From NCBI GenBank assembly GCA_026983835.1, contig JALSTH010000040.1, positions 510 to 64,509 of the forward strand: a DNA stretch of 64,000 bases, written 5' to 3'. Positions 2,747 to 58,912 of this stretch are shown here, piece after piece (within the stretch, counting starts at the first letter, position 1; the number at the start of each line of letters is the position of its first letter). Made by a program: the position numbers and the translations under genes. Source of the DNA: Candidatus Zixiibacteriota bacterium (GTDB lineage: Bacteria; Zixibacteria; MSB-5A5; UM-FILTER-46-8). The notes under the pieces were generated by a model. That model worked only from the letters and a program-made list of their open reading frames with translations, was not told the DNA's origin and did no database searches.

Positions 2747-3946
2747 ATGACTTTTAAGGCAGAAGACCAAACAAATTCATCAACGGTAACCGTCCGCTCA
2801 GACTTACCCCGGGAGAATGTTCGCCAACGGCGGATATCTGTTTTGCATATCGTCCTATCCACGGTAACCGGCGGAATGGAGAATGTTATCTATAATCTCG
2901 CTTCAGGAATGGATTACAGCCGTTATGAGGTAAAGATAGGATGTTTATTGGAGGTGGGATATCTCTCGGATAAACTGAAAAAATTCGGCGTGGAATCCTA
3001 TTTAATCCCTAAAATGATACCCGGTGTGTCGATGATCTATCCCCGTAATTTAATAAAATTCATCAGGGAAAGCGGCTGCGATATAGTTCATACCCACTCC
3101 GGATGCTGGGGCAAAGCCGCTGCAGCCTGCGTTCATCTCCCGAATGTGAAATTGATATACACCGAACATGGACGGACATTCCCGGACCCGAAGATCGGCA
3201 TCATCATAGATAGATTAGCCTCTCGTTTAACCAATAAGGTGATTGCTGTCGGGGATAATTTGCGGGATTATTTGGTGAATACCGTCGGGGTGCGAGAGGA
3301 CAAAACAATAACTATTTTTAATGGAATCGATACCGATAGATTCAAGCCCGCTGTTGAGCGATTATCAGTTCGGAAGGAATTCGGATGCGTAGATGGCGAT
3401 GTGGTAATCGGGATAGTAGCCCGATTAGCCAAAGTGAAAAATCATAATTACCTGATAGATGCTTTTAAGATCCTTTCGGAGCGAAAACTCCCCGTGAAAT
3501 TGCTCATTATCGGGGATGGTCCTCTTAGAACGGATTTGGAGATGCGGGTGAAATCCTATGGGTTAAAAGATAGGGTTATGTTTGCCGGGGATAGGGATGA
3601 TGTACCTTTACTGTTGAATGCGGTTGATGTCGCTACTTTATCATCATTGAGTGAGGGGACAAGCCTTACCCTTTTGGAAGCGATGTCCAGCGGATTGCCT
3701 GTTGTGGCGACTGCCGTCGGGGGAAATAAAACTATCATCAACGATGGGGAAAATGGCTTCCTTGTCGATATAAATGATGTAAATTCTTATGCCGATAAAT
3801 TGGAAAAATTGGTAAAATATCCGCAACTGCGAGCTGAAATCGGGGGGAAAGCCCGTAGTGATATTATTGCGAGATGGTCGTTGAAAAGGATGGTCGATGG
3901 TTATCAAAAATTATACGAAGAGATTATCAAGCAAAAGAATCCATAA
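2747..3946 (+). CDS. Family 4 glycosyltransferase (GT-B, group 1)
   Basis: N-terminal RISVLHIV...GG.E start and the C-terminal EGTSLTLLEAMSSGLPVVATAVGGNKTII-NGENGFLV (E-x7-E) signature. The true start may be downstream of 2747. Confidence 0.8.
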   Translation: MTFKAEDQTNSSTVTVRSDLPRENVRQRRISVLHIVLSTVTGGMENVIYNLASGMDYSRYEVKIGCLLEVGYLSDKLKKFGVESYLIPKMIPGVSMIYPRNLIKFIRESGCDIVHTHSGCWGKAAAACVHLPNVKLIYTEHGRTFPDPKIGIIIDRLASRLTNKVIAVGDNLRDYLVNTVGVREDKTITIFNGIDTDRFKPAVERLSVRKEFGCVDGDVVIGIVARLAKVKNHNYLIDAFKILSERKLPVKLLIIGDGPLRTDLEMRVKSYGLKDRVMFAGDRDDVPLLLNAVDVATLSSLSEGTSLTLLEAMSSGLPVVATAVGGNKTIINDGENGFLVDINDVNSYADKLEKLVKYPQLRAEIGGKARSDIIARWSLKRMVDGYQKLYEEIIKQKNP

Positions 3947-5111
3947 GTTGACCGGGAAAGATATCATCTGTATATCGTCTATGCCATATAGCGGGATGTG
4001 GACGAGAAAGCAAAGGCTGATGACTTTGTTGGCGGAGATGGGGAATCGCGTGCTTTATGTAGAACCATCGAATCCGCTTTTTACTTCAGTCGGCGATAAA
4101 GGGGAATACAATCTCGATTTTAGGGAAGCGAAAGATAATCTTTTTATACTCCGCCCCCGAGGGAGGCTTCCATTGGCAAGGTATGGGCTAATCCAAAATA
4201 TAAATCTGCGCAGATTCGCCCGTGATGTAAAAATAACGCTGTCCAAATTGAATTTCAACAATCCGATTATATTCACCTACCTTCCGGTGATCAATGCTCA
4301 TACGCCCTTTAACGATTTATTGGACTATTTCGATTATTCGCTTTTGGTATACGATTGCGTCGATGAGCATTCCGAAACAATCGGTTATTCGCCTCAAGCC
4401 TCTGAAATGGTCCATAATTGGGATTTGGAACTGACTGCCAGAGCGGATATTGTCTTCGTAACCGCAAAAAGCTTATATGATGATAGAAAACATCTCAACC
4501 GCCATTTATATTATTCGCCCAACGGAGTGAATGTAAACCATTTTTCAAAAGCGACCCAAAAAGCAATTGAAATCCCTTCCGATTTGGCGGTAATCCCGGA
4601 GCCGAGGATAGGATTTGTCGGTTCGCTTTCCGATTGGATAGACTACCGCTTAATAGCGAAAATCGCTAAAAGACATCCCTATTACAATATCGTTCTGATA
4701 GGTCCGCTCAAGCGGGGGCTAAAACCGACGGAATTGGAAGGGCTGGAAAATGTTCATCTCCTTGGAAAAAAGGACCTAAAGGATTTACCCGATTATCTGC
4801 GGGGAGTCGATTGTGGGATTAACCCTTTTAAAAAAGTAAAGCTCGCCGAAAAAGTTAACCCTCTGAAAGTCTATGAATACCTGGCAGCAGGTTTGACGGT
4901 AGTTTCGGTTGATATGCCAGAAGTCGTTCCGTTGGAGGGAGTTATCTATATCGGGCGATCGGATGAGGAATTTATCGAGGGGGTGGAAAAAGTCATCAAC
5001 GGGGAGTTTTTACCCGATAAAAGGAAATTGGAGGAGGTCCTTGCCAAGCATAATTGGGATAAAATTTTCGGGGATTTGATTGAAATAGTTGCTAAAAGGA
5101 TTTATGTGTGA
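3897..5111 (+). CDS. Glycosyltransferase, group 1-like (EPS/LPS biosynthesis)
   Basis: C-terminal LLGKKDLKDLPDYLRGVDCGINPFK...KVYEYLAAGLTVVS resembles the GT1 nucleotide-sugar binding half. AAGGA sits 7 nt before ATG 3897, which creates a 50-nt overlap with the upstream gene. An alternative start is ATG 3981 (MPYSGMW). Confidence 0.6.
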   Translation: MVIKNYTKRLSSKRIHKLTGKDIICISSMPYSGMWTRKQRLMTLLAEMGNRVLYVEPSNPLFTSVGDKGEYNLDFREAKDNLFILRPRGRLPLARYGLIQNINLRRFARDVKITLSKLNFNNPIIFTYLPVINAHTPFNDLLDYFDYSLLVYDCVDEHSETIGYSPQASEMVHNWDLELTARADIVFVTAKSLYDDRKHLNRHLYYSPNGVNVNHFSKATQKAIEIPSDLAVIPEPRIGFVGSLSDWIDYRLIAKIAKRHPYYNIVLIGPLKRGLKPTELEGLENVHLLGKKDLKDLPDYLRGVDCGINPFKKVKLAEKVNPLKVYEYLAAGLTVVSVDMPEVVPLEGVIYIGRSDEEFIEGVEKVINGEFLPDKRKLEEVLAKHNWDKIFGDLIEIVAKRIYV

Positions 5112-5146
5112 TATAATGAATATCATTTTCAATATTGTTAGAATAG

Positions 5147-54550: not shown

Positions 54551-54661
54551 CTGACTACAAATTTAGCGAGACTTATTAGCGGGAACCAAATGGGTGGATT
54601 ATGATGGGGAAATACTAATAGGGAAAACTGGGATGATAATTTCGATGGGGGGGAATAAAAC

Positions 54662-54690
54662 TTGCGAAAAGTTTTTGGGGTTGATATAAT
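54662..54690 (+). promoter_or_regulatory. Consensus-like sigma-70 promoter: TTGCGA – 17 bp – TATAAT
   Basis: Read from sequence: -35 at 54662-54667, 17-nt spacer, -10 TATAAT at 54685-54690, in the AT-rich intergenic region after coaE. Confidence 0.4.
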
Positions 54691-54722
54691 ATAATTTGAG
54701 AAATATTCAAATTGGCCTAATT

Positions 54723-54799
54723 AGAAGCACTTATAGAAATAGAAAGTACGAAGGAGCTAAAAACTGCTCTTGGGTTCGAGTCCCAGTTTCACTGCTTCT
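54723..54799 (+). ncRNA. tRNA-like element: 7-bp acceptor-like stem AGAAGCA/TGCTTCT enclosing a GGAGC hairpin and a canonical T-arm (TTGGG-TTCGAGT-CCCAG). It is not a canonical tRNA: no D-arm, and 6 extra nt sit between T-stem and acceptor.
   Basis: GGTTCGAGTCC T-loop motif and the exact 7-nt inverted repeat are read from sequence. Lies between the promoter at 54662-54690 and the hairpin terminator at 54856-54880. Confidence 0.35.
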
Positions 54800-54855
54800 T
54801 AATAAAGGGAATATTTCCGAATAAATTCTCGAAATGTTCATAAAAAAGCAGTATC

Positions 54856-54880
54856 CTTCGGATAAAATCCGAGATTTTTA
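54856..54880 (+). terminator. Small rho-independent terminator (CTTCGGA-taaaa-TCCGAG + ATTTTTA) upstream of the RloC-like gene
   Basis: 6-bp stem including a G·U pair, 5-nt loop, T-tract. Confidence 0.4.
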
Positions 54881-54936
54881 AGCAGGCTCTAATAGGATTA
54901 TATCGGAGGAGTTTAAAATTATTTAAGGTCAAAAAG

Positions 54937-57381
54937 ATGATAAAAAGAATTAAAAAAATTAAGGGAGTTGGAAGATTTTTGAATGTCGGCCATACGGAGC
55001 TTGGCCGATTAACCTTAATCTATGGCCCTAATTGTTATGGCAAGTCAACCCTTTCTGATATTTTCCGTTCAATAGCGAATAAAAATCAAGAGATTTTATC
55101 AAACAGATATTCTATTGTAAGAAATGGTGGCCCTATTGCCCAAGAAATATGTTTTAGCGTTAAAACTGATGTGGATCAGACAGAACAAGATATTTCTTGC
55201 GTTGACCGAAAGTGGAATACAGGAAGCTTCAATTACTCGATAGAAGTTTTTGACTCTCGGTTTATTGAGGATAATGTTTTTACCGGTTTAACAATTTCAA
55301 GGGACAATAAAAAAAACCTTACCAATTTGTTGATAGGTGAAAAAAGTGTTGAGATTGGCAAACAAATAGACTCTTTAAAAAATAAATCGCTTCACGAAAA
55401 GACAAAAGATATTGGCGAACTTGAGGATTCGCTCAAAAGAAATTTGGGAACTTTAAATTTAGGAATAAGTCTTGAAGACTTTATATCAGTCGAGAAGCCG
55501 GATGATATTGAAACGACTAAATCTAAATTAACTATGCTTCAAGAAAATCTGAAGAAAGTTATAAAATTAATTTCGGAAAAGAATAAGATTCTCGAACTCG
55601 ATGGACCATTAATACTTTCTATAGAAGATCCCGAGCCGACAATTAAAATTCTAAAAGATTCGCTGGAAAAAGGTTTTGAAGATATAAACGATACTGCATA
55701 TAAGCGAATGCGAGAACATATAGAACAACACTTCAAATCCCACGATGGCGAAGAAGAAGAGTGGATTGAAAAAGGGGTAAATGCCTATCTTAAACAAAAT
55801 AAAGATACAACCGTCTTAAATTGTCCGTTTTGTAGTCAATCTTTAGCTACAGTTGTTGATCTTATTGAGACATATAAAACAGTGTTCAGCGAGGAATATG
55901 AAAGCTTTTATAATGAAGCTCTTAGAATGCTGGACGATAAACATCAAGAATTCAATAAAATTATTAACAACATTAAATTAGTAGAAAATTCAGTAAATAA
56001 AAATTTGGCAATTTGCGGACGCTGGCAGGGTTATTTTACAGACGAGACCCAAAAACTCATTGAACAAATAGATAATTTCAGCAATAAAGTGAATAAATCC
56101 AAAAGCAACCTCGTAGGGCTAATGGAAGAAGTTTCCGGCAAATTTGGAGAACTTATCGGTGAAAAAAAGAAGAAGCCTTTTGTTTCTATTAAGGAATTTC
56201 CTACTGGCGATAAATTACTAACCACTTATCAGCAATTCGCAGAAATGGTAAATAAATACAATGAAGACGTAAAGTTACTTATTATAGAAATAAACACCCT
56301 TAAAACAAGGAGTCAGAATGACCAACTAGTAAAAGAGTCAGAAAACTTGAGCAATAAAATAGAGGACATAAAAACAAAAATAAAAAGATCCGAATTAGCG
56401 GCAGATATAGACAAATATCAACTTTTAAAAAGAGAGAAAGATAAAATAGAACAGGAAATTAAAAAATTGCAGGAAAAACTAGAGCAAGAAAATACAAAAT
56501 TCATTGAGCAATACTTTCAGGATACAACGCACATTTTTAATAGATTAGGCTCTATTGACTTTGAAATTCAGACAACTTATAGACGTTGGGGAGGTCAGCC
56601 GGTATATGAACCGACAATCAAATTTGCAAACGAAGAAATTACTTTTAATCGATTACCATTTATATTTAGTGATGCGGACAGGAGGGCTTTGGCATTTTCA
56701 ATTTTCATTTCAAAACTCAGAAATAAAAGTGAGGCTGAATTAAAAAATACCATCGTTTTTTTAGACGATCCAATAACCAGCTTTGACGACAATAGAATTT
56801 CACAGACCTTTATAGAGATTAAGAATCTTACAACATCTTGCCGCCAATTAATTATAGCTGCACATCACAGCAGATTTTTACTTGATACTTACGAGAAACT
56901 AAAAAGCCTTCCGAATCTGGATTTAAAATTTATTGAAATCAAAAGAGATGGTTTTGGTACCCTCTTTGGGTTGGTTAGTGATCCTAAAACTAGATTAGAC
57001 CCCCATGCTCAAGAAATAGAGAAGGTGGAAAGATTTATTAATGGCGATTCTGATGTAAACGCGTCGGACGTGCGTAGATCATTAAGACCAATACTAGAAA
57101 AAGAGATAGAGTGGAGGTTCAGAAGAGACTTAAAAGGAGTATCTTTTGAGGGGCTTGGCGATATTGTTACCAAACTGAAAGAAAAAAATTCAATAAGCGA
57201 GAAGATAGCAAGAAGGATTTACGACTTTAATGACGTACTTATAGATGACCATCACGAAACAACTTTAGATACGAATGAAGATACAAGAAATTTGTCTAGA
57301 GATATCATTGAATTTATTTTTAAAGAACTAATCCCTAATAGTAAGTCCTTGAATTCTGAATTTAAAAAACTTGATAAATAG
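54937..57381 (+). CDS. RloC-like (AAA_13 family) ABC-type ATPase with coiled-coil insert carrying a CxxC zinc-hook; candidate anticodon-nuclease/defence protein
   Basis: N-terminal IKKIKGVGRFLNVGHTELGRLTLIYGPNCYGKSTL (Walker A). Roughly 500-aa K/E-rich coiled coil containing LNCPFCSQSL. Distal signature-like FSDADRRALAFSIF, Walker B IVFLDDPITSFDDNR, H-loop IIAAHHSRF. About 160-aa C-terminal domain. The gene is very AT-rich. Confidence 0.6.
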   Translation: MIKRIKKIKGVGRFLNVGHTELGRLTLIYGPNCYGKSTLSDIFRSIANKNQEILSNRYSIVRNGGPIAQEICFSVKTDVDQTEQDISCVDRKWNTGSFNYSIEVFDSRFIEDNVFTGLTISRDNKKNLTNLLIGEKSVEIGKQIDSLKNKSLHEKTKDIGELEDSLKRNLGTLNLGISLEDFISVEKPDDIETTKSKLTMLQENLKKVIKLISEKNKILELDGPLILSIEDPEPTIKILKDSLEKGFEDINDTAYKRMREHIEQHFKSHDGEEEEWIEKGVNAYLKQNKDTTVLNCPFCSQSLATVVDLIETYKTVFSEEYESFYNEALRMLDDKHQEFNKIINNIKLVENSVNKNLAICGRWQGYFTDETQKLIEQIDNFSNKVNKSKSNLVGLMEEVSGKFGELIGEKKKKPFVSIKEFPTGDKLLTTYQQFAEMVNKYNEDVKLLIIEINTLKTRSQNDQLVKESENLSNKIEDIKTKIKRSELAADIDKYQLLKREKDKIEQEIKKLQEKLEQENTKFIEQYFQDTTHIFNRLGSIDFEIQTTYRRWGGQPVYEPTIKFANEEITFNRLPFIFSDADRRALAFSIFISKLRNKSEAELKNTIVFLDDPITSFDDNRISQTFIEIKNLTTSCRQLIIAAHHSRFLLDTYEKLKSLPNLDLKFIEIKRDGFGTLFGLVSDPKTRLDPHAQEIEKVERFINGDSDVNASDVRRSLRPILEKEIEWRFRRDLKGVSFEGLGDIVTKLKEKNSISEKIARRIYDFNDVLIDDHHETTLDTNEDTRNLSRDIIEFIFKELIPNSKSLNSEFKKLDK

Positions 57382-57542
57382 GGATTTTGGTGGATAATAA
57401 AACTAACTTTACCTACCGCCCTTTATTTTGTAGCCCGTCGCTTTCTGAAAAAATTTCGGTAAAGTTAGATAGCAGGTGGTGAGGATAATCCATCGCCTGT
57501 TGAGTCTTTAAAAAATTGGGTTTAATATTATATTCCCAGGGA

Positions 57543-58691
57543 TCATTCGGTAAATAAATCCAGGTACTCTTTTAATATGAACATTCTGTTTCGCGAAAAG
57601 CCAGTGTATTCTCTTAAAATATTAATCTCCACAAGATCCTTTATGAGAGAGTTTGCTGCTTTATAAGATACATCAAGAACATCCTGCGCCTGACGGACAC
57701 CGATAATAGGTTTCCCAAACATATATTCAAGAAGTCTATTGCCCGATTTCGCCCTTCTCCCCAGTTTTAATATCTCATTATCATATCTCCTTTTCAATTT
57801 GATAATATTCTCTAAAGTCATCTTGCCGTTTTCTACGGTTTCTATTATTACTGAAAGGAAAAATATTATCCACTGTTCAATATCATTTTTTAGCCGAACA
57901 GAGTTTAATATATCATAATAGGCGGCGCGGTGCTTCTCAAAAAAGTAGGAAATGTAAAGAGTAGGCTTTCGTAATAAACCATAATAAATCAATTGCAGAG
58001 TTATAAGCAACCGCCCTATCCTACCATTGCCGTCTAAAAAGGGATGTATCGTTTCAAATTGATAGTGAGTTAAAGCTACTTTTATAAGGTGCGGTATGCC
58101 AAGGGATTCATTGTGCCAAAATTTCTCCAAATCTTTTAAAAGGTTAGGCAATTCCCTATGATGAGGAGGAACGAAAGAAGCGTTGCGCAAATTTGATCCC
58201 CCAATCCAATTTTGACTTTTGCGGATTTCCCCCGGTTGCTTTTGCTGACCCCGTACCCCTGATAATAGAATTTTATGTGTCTCCCCTATCAATCGCATAC
58301 AGAGAGGTAATTCCTTAAGTTTATCAACCGCAAAATTAATTGCTTTTATGTAATTTTGAACTTCCTCCCAATCGTCTCTTATCTCCGGTTTTATTTCCTC
58401 CTTCGGGAGGACAGCTTCAGTTATATTGGTTTTCGTACCTTCGATTTTACTTGAGGTCGTAGCCTCTTTTATAATATGCATTTGAATAAAAAAATCGACA
58501 TCTGGGACAAGTAAAGAATAGGCATTTAATTCCCCTAAAAGCCTTGCAGCCTTTTCTAACAAAATATCTATATCGGCACTATGCCATTTGAACCTTTTAT
58601 TGACATAGTTTGGTGTGAAGCTTTTATATTCGGATTCTGTTGCCCTGAGCTGTTTTTCGTATTTGCCGGAAGCAAAATCCATTTCATCCAT
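57543..58691 (-). CDS. Fic-family protein (AMPylator-type), class II: N-terminal inhibitory motif present
   Basis: Canonical Fic motif [14 protein letters not shown] (HxFx[D/E]GNGRxxR). Upstream SSKIEG matches the [S/T]xxxE[G/N] inhibitory helix. Confidence 0.85.
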
Positions 58692-58884
58692 ATATTCTTA
58701 TCCTAATTAGATTATGCCGATAAAAAGTAAAATATAAAATTCCTTATGTTCATTTTAGCTCTAAAAGTAAAATAAGGCAAATTATATTTTACTTTTAGGT
58801 AAATATGGAAGATTTAACACCCCCTCGTTCTATAAATACTATAATAATTTTAGGAATATCTGTTTTCCATAATATTTCGTAAAG

Positions 58885-58912
58885 AAAGCGGCGGAAGAAT
58901 GTCCGCCGCTTT
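58885..58912 (-). terminator. Rho-independent terminator (AAAGCGGCGG-aagaatgt-CCGCCGCTTT) downstream of the minus-strand FG-GAP gene; A/T-flanked, possibly bidirectional
   Basis: 10-bp perfect stem read from sequence, 35 nt past the stop of the 58947-60947 gene. Confidence 0.6.

What the first reader, a model, noticed from the sequence alone, without database searches (positions are those of the whole stretch)
54662..54880. Promoter – tRNA-like element – terminator unit directly upstream of the RloC-like gene
Within 220 nt there is a near-consensus promoter (TTGCGA-17-TATAAT), then a 77-nt element bounded by an exact 7-bp inverted repeat (AGAAGCA…TGCTTCT), then a small hairpin terminator with a T-tract. 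The 77-nt element contains a canonical tRNA T-arm (TTGGG-TTCGAGT-CCCAG) and an anticodon-arm-like GGAGC hairpin. It lacks a D-arm and has 6 extra nt before the 3' acceptor strand, so it is not a standard tRNA. Three readings: (i) a small tRNA-like RNA, which is intriguing next to a putative anticodon nuclease (decoy, substrate mimic or immunity RNA); (ii) a decayed 3' tRNA fragment marking an integrase attachment site at the island boundary; (iii) coincidence.
Basis: seen in the sequence. Interest (0 to 1): 0.55.

Follow-up and report, generated by a model that had tools for sequence, protein, structure and literature searches.

The report
Decayed tRNA gene remnant beside RloC
The "tRNA-like element" is most likely the dead remnant of a phage-type tRNA gene lying in the patchwork DNA at the edge of a small, horizontally acquired defence islet, and there is no evidence that it is a working RNA partner of the neighbouring anticodon-nuclease-like gene.

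Summary
Only one part is statistically unusual: the T arm plus the bases that follow it.

- **What is tRNA-like.** Window 54764-54792 is collinear with the variable loop, T arm and 3' acceptor strand of real tRNAs. It matches a metagenomic tRNA-Ile at 27/29. Positions 54771-54792 match a phage tRNA-Leu(UAA) at 22/22.
- **Reinterpretation of the "extra" bases.** The 7-bp inverted repeat AGAAGCA/TGCTTCT is probably chance (19% in shuffled flanks).
- **Flank similarity.** Similarity to the phage locus continues about 60 nt past the tRNA end (22/41 anchored, p about 5e-4). Nothing 5' of the T stem is significantly tRNA-like.
- **Negative tests.** ARAGORN (default and 80% threshold) and Rfam find nothing. 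Folding is no better than shuffles. No second copy exists in any collection searched.
- **No link to the gene.** Homologues of the RloC-like gene with 48-89% identity never carry the element. They sit inside restriction-modification operons, and a roughly 30-nt relic of such a gene survives at 54906-54934.
- **Context.** The element lies in a 4.3-kb low-GC islet (RloC-like gene plus SoFic).

Verdict: a tRNA pseudogene or fragment, ordinary in kind. Reading (ii) is partly right, but no integrase, partner tRNA or direct repeat was found. Reading (i) is unsupported. Expression was not tested.

The parts
54662..54690 (+). Sigma-70-like promoter match TTGCGA-17-TATAAT with TG extension. It could be a former tRNA promoter, the present promoter of the RloC-like gene 247 nt downstream, or both.
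   Evidence: 10/12. Such matches are common: 47 in the window, 15 of them intergenic. Function is inferred, not shown.
54705..54795 (+). Possible full extent of a badly decayed class-II (long variable arm) tRNA pseudogene. Low confidence for the 5' two thirds.
   Evidence: ARAGORN draws it only at a 60% threshold: acceptor 5/7, D stem 3/4, no G18G19, no U33. The D-arm-like string TGGCCTAAT--TAGAAGCA against the phage tRNA-Leu D arm gives p=0.035. Overall 5' similarity gives p=0.35. Fold z = +0.42.
54764..54792 (+). The demonstrably tRNA-derived segment: variable loop, T arm (54770-54786) and acceptor 3' strand TTTCAC(T).
   Evidence: 27/29 identical to positions 44-72 of a tRNA-Ile(GAT) in L094. 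54771-54792 is 22/22 identical to the phage tRNA-Leu(UAA) of L120/L121. GGGTTCGANTCCC occurred in 0 of 100 shuffles.
54793..54853 (+). Flank with residual similarity to the DNA downstream of the phage tRNA-Leu gene.
   Evidence: Anchored, ungapped: 22/41 identical (p=5.5e-4 by shuffling; 3e-4 against all L120 41-mers), then 12/17 after a 2-nt gap. Local alignment p=0.008. Alignment shown.
54723..54799 (+). The bounding repeat is probably fortuitous.
   Evidence: A 7-bp closing helix appears in 19% of shuffled flanks. Fold z = -0.92. A single-sequence covariance model finds no other copy.
54857..54879 (+). Terminator-like hairpin (7 bp, 3 G-C pairs, loop AAA) plus a T5 run. Relative to the phage flank it sits in an insertion of about 21 nt.
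   Evidence: The number of such sites is not above expectation (2 against 1.4).
54906..54934 (+). Relic of the last codons of a type IIG methyltransferase/endonuclease gene. In relatives this gene overlaps the start of the RloC-like gene.
   Evidence: Collinear with L005 positions -31..-2 (p=0.003) and with L002 (p=0.017).
54937..57381 (+). RloC-like ABC-ATPase / putative anticodon nuclease (814 aa).
   Evidence: Pfam AAA_13 2.1e-28. PADLOC PDC-S06 3.4e-147 and PrrC 3.9e-8. Walker A GPNCYGKST, CPFC, and R-x3-E-x50-HH, compared with the RloC definition in PMC2610378.
57543..58691 (-). SoFic-type Fic protein, the second gene of the low-GC islet.
   Evidence: PADLOC SoFic 9.2e-113. Pfam Fic_N and Fic.
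54600..58900 (.). Low-GC islet (32-37% against 43-50% in the flanks) inserted after the conserved ftsK...polA-coaE gene block.
   Evidence: The upstream synteny is conserved in Zixibacteria relatives, whereas what follows coaE differs.

Best explanation
The element is a non-functional remnant of a tRNA gene, most like a phage-type class-II tRNA-Leu(UAA).

**Shown.**
- The segment 54764-54792 preserves the variable loop, a perfect T arm and the acceptor 3' strand.
- The next roughly 60 nt still resemble the DNA downstream of a phage tRNA-Leu gene.
- The 5' two thirds are either replaced by unrelated DNA or mutated beyond recognition.
- The remnant lies in mosaic junction DNA at the left edge of a 4.3-kb low-GC islet.
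- About 115 nt further on is a second scar, the last ~30 nt of a restriction-modification gene that in relatives precedes and overlaps the RloC-like gene.

**Inferred.**
- The islet was assembled by illegitimate or site-specific recombination of foreign pieces.
- The promoter-like site may be the old tRNA promoter. It now most plausibly drives the RloC-like gene, which has lost its operon.
- The adjacency of tRNA relic and anticodon-nuclease-like gene is a by-product of this patchwork, not a functional pairing.
For: - The T-arm core is far rarer than chance.
- Window 54764-54792 is collinear with real tRNA 3' parts: 27/29 with the L094 tRNA-Ile, and 22/22 over 54771-54792 with the tRNA-Leu(UAA) of L120/L121.
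- That contig carries phage HNH and endonuclease VII genes among its tRNAs.
- The flank similarity was not part of the search pattern and is significant: 22/41 anchored, p=5.5e-4, and local p=0.008.
- Not a functional tRNA or known RNA: ARAGORN finds nothing at default or 80% threshold, Rfam finds nothing, and folds are no better than shuffles.
- No other copy: genome, viral and metagenome scans and covariance-model searches of 48 sources, the window and 47 loci, returned none.
- Not linked to the gene: homologues at 48-89% identity lie directly behind RM genes, and no match to the element was found in those loci.
- Mosaic context: a GC drop and an RM-gene relic.
Against: - The matching tRNAs were found with patterns taken from the element itself. 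The identity inside the pattern is therefore forced, and only 7 of 9 (L094) or the flank positions (L120) are free tests.
- Only one independent phage sequence supports the flank similarity.
- Similarity 5' of the T stem is not significant, so 'whole decayed gene' cannot be told from '5'-truncated fragment'.
- The organism's own tRNA set could not be searched. Its contig was returned by neither the genome scan nor the metagenome scan.
- Expression was not tested, so non-functionality is inferred from decay and lack of conservation. The three available copies are 100% identical and uninformative.
Confidence: 0.6

Rival explanations
1. Integrase attachment-site scar. The roughly 30-nt tRNA 3' segment would be the duplicated core (attL/attR) left by a tRNA-targeting integrative element that delivered the islet.
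For: - The segment covers the part of a tRNA that such integrases duplicate, from variable loop to 3' end.
- Its 3' end points into the low-GC islet.
- In an unrelated RloC-like island (L108), tRNA genes flank both sides.
Against: - The 64-kb window has no intact tRNA.
- No direct repeat lies at the right islet edge or elsewhere in the window.
- None of the genes scanned between 49.8 and 63.2 kb matched an integrase family.
- Similarity to the phage locus extends about 60 nt beyond the tRNA end, which an att core would not explain.
Confidence: 0.15
2. Pure chance. An AT-rich intergenic spacer happens to contain a T-arm-like hairpin and a few short helices.
For: - The 11-nt core GGTTCGANTCC appears in 10% of shuffled windows.
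- The same 20-mer occurs inside GC-rich stretches that hold no ARAGORN-detected tRNA (L095, L099, L101).
- The closing stem, promoter-like and terminator-like sites are all near background.
- Folding is not better than shuffles.
Against: - The 13-nt core occurred in 0 of 100 shuffles.
- 7 of 9 free flanking positions match a tRNA-Ile.
- The flank beyond TTTCAC matches the phage tRNA-Leu flank with p about 5e-4.
Confidence: 0.13
3. An expressed tRNA-like small RNA acts on the RloC-like nuclease as a decoy, substrate mimic or immunity RNA, perhaps replacing the lost RM partner as its silencer.
For: - A promoter-like site lies 15 nt upstream of the putative 5' end, and a terminator-like hairpin 60 nt downstream.
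- The T arm is intact.
- The RloC-like gene here has lost the RM genes that accompany all examined homologues, so some other control would be needed if it is active.
Against: - The element is not conserved with any homologue, including the 89% identical one.
- No family members exist anywhere searched.
- No tRNA or Rfam model support was found.
- The acceptor stem is 5/7, there is no U33 and no G18G19.
- There is no thermodynamic signal.
- No precedent was found in the literature searches.
Confidence: 0.06
4. Cis-regulatory 5' leader. The promoter at 54662-54690 drives the RloC-like gene through a 240-nt leader. Two mutually exclusive hairpins (54852-54864 and 54857-54873 plus the T run) would act as an attenuator.
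For: - It is the only strong promoter-like site between coaE and the gene.
- The GGAT segment can pair with either flanking ATCC.
- The gene lost its operon promoter along with the RM genes.
Against: - No conservation data exist, and the leader is unique to this strain.
- No riboswitch or leader family matched.
- The hairpin is short and the fold is not significant.
- This reading is compatible with, rather than opposed to, the tRNA-relic origin.
Confidence: 0.1

Closest known systems
tRNA gene fragments and pseudo-tRNAs at genomic-island junctions (3' tRNA segments duplicated or left behind by tRNA-targeting integrative elements and prophages; from general knowledge)
   Same: A roughly 30-nt segment comprises the variable loop, T arm and acceptor 3' strand. 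It lies at a compositional boundary next to horizontally acquired defence genes, and its 3' end faces the island.
   Different: No integrase, no intact partner tRNA and no direct repeat were found in the window. Similarity to a phage locus runs past the tRNA end. The 5' part may be a decayed gene rather than a clean truncation.
Phage-encoded tRNA genes in tRNA clusters interspersed with homing endonucleases (here the tRNA-Leu(UAA) of IMG/VR contigs L120 and L121)
   Same: Identity is 22/22 over the T arm and acceptor 3' strand, and about 55-60% over the next 60 nt. The decayed class-II-like drawing has a compatible length.
   Different: The window copy has an acceptor of 5/7, no G18G19, no U33 and no CCA. 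Standard tRNA finders do not detect it. It lies in a bacterial chromosome, not in a phage tRNA cluster.
RloC/PrrC anticodon nucleases linked to restriction-modification loci, including RloC genes flanked by relics of RM genes (Davidov & Kaufmann 2008, PMC2610378)
   Same: The neighbouring gene has the RloC motifs. Its homologues sit inside type IIG or type III RM operons. A relic of the RM gene survives upstream, echoing the hsdR relic described for an RloC locus.
   Different: This concerns the neighbour, not the element. Neither that paper nor my searches describe an RNA partner for RloC or PrrC.
Rfam families RAGATH-12 (RF03149) and tmRNA (RF00023)
   Same: The 5' string UAGAAGCACUUAUAGAA resembles the unpaired 5' end of the RAGATH-12 consensus. 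The T arm aligns locally to the tmRNA T arm.
   Different: Scores are 14.8 bits against a gathering score of 75, and 9.6 against 47. The RAGATH-12 hairpins are not formed. Both count as chance or partial matches.

Membership tests
Functional tRNA | Detected as a cloverleaf by standard tRNA finders or the Rfam tRNA model | tested here: not met
   ARAGORN finds nothing at default or 80% threshold. Rfam finds nothing at gathering level, and no tRNA row appears at E<=10. Clan competition with the tmRNA hit could hide only an even weaker tRNA hit.
Functional tRNA | A 7-bp acceptor stem whose 3' strand directly follows the T stem | tested here: not met
   ATTCAAA/TTTCACT pairs at only 5 of 7 positions. 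The perfect 7-bp repeat is displaced by 6 nt.
Functional tRNA | D arm with G18G19, and a 7-nt anticodon loop with U33 | tested here: not met
   The best drawing has D stem 3/4, no GG in the D loop, and the loop AGAAATA with G at position 33.
Functional tRNA | T arm: 5-bp stem with G53-C61 and loop TTCRANY | tested here: met
   TTGGG-TTCGAGT-CCCAG at 54770-54786. The core occurred in 0 of 100 shuffles.
tRNA-derived relic (pseudogene or 3' fragment) | Collinear sequence similarity to the 3' part of real tRNA genes, ending at or near the tRNA 3' end | tested here: met
   27/29 to tRNA-Ile positions 44-72. 22/22 to the tRNA-Leu(UAA) T arm plus acceptor strand. Identity stops at positions 72/73 and CCA.
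tRNA-derived relic (pseudogene or 3' fragment) | Similarity to a tRNA locus beyond the searched pattern (an independent test of homology) | tested here: met
   Downstream flank 22/41 anchored, p=5.5e-4; local p=0.008. Only one independent phage sequence is available.
Integrase att site at a tRNA | An intact tRNA at one island end, a direct repeat of its 3' part at the other, and an integrase gene | tested here: not met
   The window has no tRNA and no repeat. No integrase family matched any gene scanned. The rest of the genome could not be tested.
Conserved RNA partner of RloC-like genes | The element, or a structural equivalent, present next to homologues of the gene | tested here: not met
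   28 loci of seven homologue clusters at 48-89% identity were examined; the T-arm motif scan was run on the first five. In all of them the gene start abuts or overlaps an upstream RM or HEPN gene, or follows one after about 150 nt. No match to the element was found.
RNA family with covariation support | Multiple divergent copies that keep the base pairs | not testable with these tools
   Only three copies exist and they are 100% identical. No others were found in any collection.
Type III toxin-antitoxin RNA (ToxI-like) | Tandem array of short repeats upstream of the toxin gene | tested here: not met
   No tandem repeats lie in 54551-54930.
RloC (neighbouring gene) | ABC-ATPase motifs, a CXXC zinc hook in a coiled-coil insert, and a C-terminal R-x3-E-x36-52-H triad | tested here: met
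   GPNCYGKST, CPFC, and RPILE followed 50-51 residues later by HH, against the definition in PMC2610378. AAA_13 and PDC-S06 hits. The match is at motif level only; nuclease activity is not testable here.

The most novel reading that the evidence does not exclude
The relic is still transcribed from its own promoter as a tRNA-like RNA of about 90-180 nt with an intact T arm and an acceptor-like helix. In this reading it has been co-opted as a cis-encoded decoy or silencer that keeps the RM-orphaned RloC-like anticodon nuclease in check. That would be an RNA substitute for the restriction enzyme that masks PrrC.
Probability: 0.05. Interest if true: 0.75.

Novelty: new member of a known kind. Interest (0 to 1): 0.15.

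Why it matters
As a tRNA-gene scar it matters little. It is one more marker of mosaic, horizontally acquired DNA, and it helps define the edge and history of a small defence islet in an uncultured Zixibacteria-like genome.

It also removes a tempting but unsupported story of an RNA partner for an anticodon nuclease. The more useful by-product concerns the gene. This RloC-like family is 82-89% identical across at least three phyla and is almost always embedded in type IIG or type III restriction-modification operons. Here it occurs as an orphan with only a 30-nt relic of its former partner. That makes it a natural case for asking how such nucleases are controlled without their RM system.

Tried and rejected
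- **Rfam.** Nothing was found at gathering or E-value level. The RAGATH-12 hit (14.8 of 75 bits) and the tmRNA T-arm hit are too weak, and no paper mentions RAGATH-12.
- **Second copy or direct repeat in the window.** None found.
- **Phage and plasmid BLAST of the intergenic region.** Nothing relevant.
- **Exact scans of public collections.**
  - The genome scan with GGGTTCGAGTCCCAGTTTCACTG gave 0 hits. In hindsight the terminal TG may be mutated, so this test was too strict.
  - Viral scans with the 5' part and with the hairpin/T-arm junction gave 0 hits.
  - The metagenome scan gave only unrelated tRNAs and three chance hits in GC-rich stretches without a detected tRNA.
- **Synteny via PolA.** The closest genomes are only 47-48% identical, which is too distant.
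- **Zixibacteria relatives via CoaE.** The upstream synteny is conserved, but their intergenic DNA is unrelated.
- **Other assemblies of the same strain.** They are 100% identical, so no covariation information is available.
- **Remnant of the upstream RM gene covering the element.** Only the last roughly 30 nt before the ATG are a relic.
- **Single-sequence covariance model.** It found no other copy in the window and 47 loci.
- **Similarity of the 5' two thirds to the phage tRNA-Leu or its leader.** Not significant; the D arm is marginal at p=0.035.
- **Bacteroidota-type promoter motif TAnnTTTG.** It is not enriched in the intergenic regions of this window, so I did not use it against the sigma-70-like site.
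- **Small ORFs in the region.** All are 47 aa or shorter and were not pursued.

Full report
**1. The observation**

- TTGCGA-17-TATAAT lies at 54662-54690 (10 of 12, with a TG extension).
- AGAAGCA lies at 54723-54729 and TGCTTCT at 54793-54799.
- The T arm TTGGG-TTCGAGT-CCCAG lies at 54770-54786.
- A 7-bp hairpin with a T5 run lies at 54857-54879.

Two details need correcting. The GGAGC/GCTCT hairpin has an 8-nt loop and shares its last T with the T stem, so it is not anticodon-arm-like. The 'six extra nucleotides' turn out to be the informative part (section 4).

**2. Is it more than chance?**

Only the T arm is.
- GGGTTCGANTCCC occurred in none of 100 shuffles of the window. The 11-nt core occurred in 10 of 100.
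- With the T arm held fixed and the flanks shuffled, a perfect 7-bp closing helix appears in 19% of trials. An abutting 5-bp hairpin appears in 3%.
- Promoter-like matches of this quality occur 47 times in the window, 15 of them intergenic.
- In the local 1.5 kb, promoter-like and terminator-like counts are close to the shuffled expectation.
- Predicted folding is no better than shuffles for the 77 nt (z -0.92), the 183-nt 'unit' (z -1.34), the opposite strand and the 91-nt stretch 54705-54795 (z +0.42).

**3. Standard RNA tests**

- ARAGORN finds no tRNA in the whole window and none in the region at an 80% threshold.
- At 60% it draws a 91-nt class-II-like 'tRNA-Phe(aaa)' at 54705-54795. The acceptor is 5/7, the D stem 3/4, and there is no G18G19 or U33. 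It also draws an obviously spurious second gene nearby.
- The D-armless 'mitochondrial' mode gives many calls in this AT-rich DNA once its threshold is lowered to 80% (12 in 501 nt), so its hit carries no weight.
- Rfam gives nothing at gathering thresholds.
- At E<=10 Rfam gives only a local tmRNA T-arm match (9.6 bits) and a RAGATH-12 match (14.8 bits against a gathering score of 75) in which the model's hairpins are not formed.
- There are no tandem repeats.

**4. What the tRNA-like part is**

*Metagenome scan.* A scan with the T arm plus one or two bases on each side returned 11 contigs. Five hold real tRNA-Ile(GAT) genes in dense tRNA arrays. One of these, in L094, matches window 54764-54792 at 27 of 29 positions, collinear with tRNA positions 44-72. 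Of the nine positions not forced by the pattern, seven match.

*Viral scan.* A scan with TTCGAGTCCCAGTTTCAC hit one phage sequence present in two IMG/VR contigs.
- The hit lies in a bona fide 86-nt class-II tRNA-Leu(UAA).
- The gene sits in a cluster of four tRNAs, with HNH and endonuclease VII genes close to it.
- Its 3' end reads CTGGGTTCGAGTCCCAG-TTTCACC-A-CCA. The window reads TTGGGTTCGAGTCCCAG-TTTCACT-G-CTT.

*An independent test.* Taking the end of TTTCAC as a fixed anchor and allowing no gaps, 22 of the next 41 bases are identical between window and phage. This gives p=5.5e-4 by shuffling and 3e-4 against all 41-mers of the phage locus. After a 2-nt indel, 12 of the next 17 match. A local alignment with shuffles gives p=0.008 (alignment).

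*Upstream of the T stem.* Nothing significant was found against the tRNA body (p=0.35) or the phage leader (p=0.94). A D-arm-like string at the expected distance is marginal (p=0.035).

*Conclusion.* Window 54764 to about 54853 derives from the 3' end and downstream flank of a tRNA gene of a phage-like type. Either the 5' two thirds were replaced at a breakpoint near 54763, or the whole gene (54705-54794) has decayed. I cannot separate these two.

**5. Context**

*Organism and flanking genes.* Upstream lies a conserved block ending in polA-coaE. The CoaE protein is 100% identical to one on a 64.6-kb contig. It is 59-68% identical to the closest other homologues, one of which is annotated as candidate division Zixibacteria. 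Two of these homologue loci were examined and share the upstream synteny, but different genes follow coaE. The closest PolA in the species-representative genomes is only 47-48% identical.

*The islet.* GC falls from 43-50% to 32-37% between about 54600 and 58900. This islet holds an 814-aa AAA_13/PDC-S06 protein and a SoFic-type Fic protein.

*The RloC-like protein.* It has the RloC hallmarks defined by Davidov & Kaufmann (PMC2610378):
- Walker A GPNCYGKST;
- a CPFC zinc-hook motif;
- R-x3-E followed 50-51 residues later by HH.

*Its homologues.* Homologues 64-89% identical are annotated in Omnitrophota, Elusimicrobiota and Ratteibacteria MAGs, and more distant ones (31-48%) in Pacebacteria and Armatimonadota. 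In all 28 loci I fetched, the gene abuts or overlaps an upstream gene, or follows one after about 150 nt. The partner is usually a type IIG Eco57I/MmeI-like gene preceded by an SNF2-PLD helicase. Other variants are mod-rloC-res of a type III system, an intervening HEPN_AbiV gene, or (in L002-L004) an unannotated 245-aa gene followed by a 150-nt gap that holds a relic of the MTase gene's 3' end.

*Absence of the element there.* No match to the window's element was found in those loci. This rests on a T-arm motif scan of the first five, the covariance-model search of all of them, and ARAGORN on a subset.

*The RM relic.* In the window, 54906-54934 is still collinear with the last codons of the type IIG gene of the closest relatives (p=0.003 and 0.017). 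The RloC-like gene therefore arrived as a fragment torn out of an RM operon, and the tRNA remnant lies about 115 nt to the left of that breakpoint.

**6. Is it an att site?**

The orientation fits, with the 3' end facing the islet. The rest does not.
- The window contains no tRNA gene.
- None of the genes scanned between 49.8 and 63.2 kb matched an integrase family.
- No repeat of the segment lies at the right islet edge or elsewhere in the window.
- The similarity beyond the tRNA end argues for a piece of a tRNA locus rather than a minimal core.
- The organism's other contigs could not be searched. Neither the genome scan nor the metagenome scan returned its own contig.

**7. Is it a functional RNA tied to RloC?**

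There is no positive evidence.
- The only copies are three 100% identical assemblies of the same strain.
- No other copy exists in the species-representative genomes, IMG/VR or the JGI metagenomes by exact scans.
- None was found in the window or in 47 fetched loci by a covariance model.
- Literature searches found no described RNA partner of RloC or PrrC.
- Expression could not be tested.

**8. Verdict**

The finding is real as sequence but ordinary in kind. It is a decayed tRNA gene remnant in mosaic junction DNA of a small defence islet. The promoter-like site may be the fossil tRNA promoter and is the most plausible present promoter of the orphaned RloC-like gene; this is inference.

My confidence estimates are:
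- about 0.6 for a tRNA-gene relic without function;
- about 0.15 for a strict att scar;
- about 0.13 for pure chance;
- about 0.1 for a cis-regulatory leader, which is compatible with the relic origin;
- about 0.05-0.06 for a functional tRNA-like RNA.

Noticed in passing
window 54906-57381; loci L001-L005, L102-L119: The RloC-like gene is 64-89% identical in MAGs annotated as Omnitrophota, Elusimicrobiota and Ratteibacteria, and 31-48% in Pacebacteria and Armatimonadota. In every fetched locus it is embedded in an RM operon: type IIG with an SNF2-PLD helicase, or mod-rloC-res of type III. In the window it is an orphan with only a ~30-nt relic of the RM gene upstream.
   Followed up: partly
window 57543-58691 (-); L108 9147-10235; L002 11210-12244: Fic-family genes recur next to RloC-like genes in three different contexts. 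The window's SoFic is 37% identical to the Fic behind the type III RM/RloC operon in L108, and 29% identical to the one in L002. This may be a recurrent defence-islet pairing.
   Followed up: partly
window 58723-58796: A 36-nt imperfect palindrome (83% complementary arms, 2-nt spacer) lies in the AT-rich region upstream of the SoFic gene. It could be an operator or promoter element. A strong GC hairpin at about 58885-58912 lies just beyond it, at the right edge of the low-GC islet.
   Followed up: no
window 54852-54873: Two mutually exclusive small hairpins share the GGAT segment: TATCC-TTC-GGATA and TTCGGAT-AAA-ATCCGAG followed by T5. They look like a miniature antiterminator/terminator pair in the leader of the RloC-like gene. 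There are no comparative data to test this.
   Followed up: no
L096 3254-4708: A metagenomic contig carries about four copies of a 150-300-nt repeat. Three of the copies hold the same 17-nt T-arm string (CTTGGGTTCGAGTCCCA), yet ARAGORN calls no tRNA. It may be a tRNA-derived repeat family.
   Followed up: no
L092 (13 tRNAs in 5.9 kb), L097 (20 tRNAs in 7.6 kb), L091, L093, L094: These are dense tRNA arrays with several isoacceptor duplicates and unusual D arms. They include the tRNA-Ile(GAT) whose 3' part most resembles the window element. The arrays are probably of phage or mobile-element origin.
   Followed up: no
L114-L119, about 3434-3973: In the RloC-like homologues at about 48% identity, a HEPN_AbiV gene is inserted between the type IIG RM gene and the RloC-like gene. 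A Hypoth_Ymh gene follows.
   Followed up: no
L108 10330-10406 (-) and 793-997 (-): The type III RM-RloC-Fic island in L108 has tRNA-Ser and tRNA-Cys on one side. On the other side is a tRNA cut by the locus end, plus what looks like a partial tRNA 5' fragment. That is an island flanked by tRNA genes, unlike the window.
   Followed up: partly
window 5089-5117 and 1675-1704: Other promoter-like sites in this genome resemble the one at 54662-54690, for example TTGCTA-17-TATAAT 30 nt upstream of an ORF start. The Bacteroidota-type TAnnTTTG motif is not enriched in intergenic DNA. Together these hint that this FCB-group organism uses sigma-70-like promoters.
   Followed up: partly
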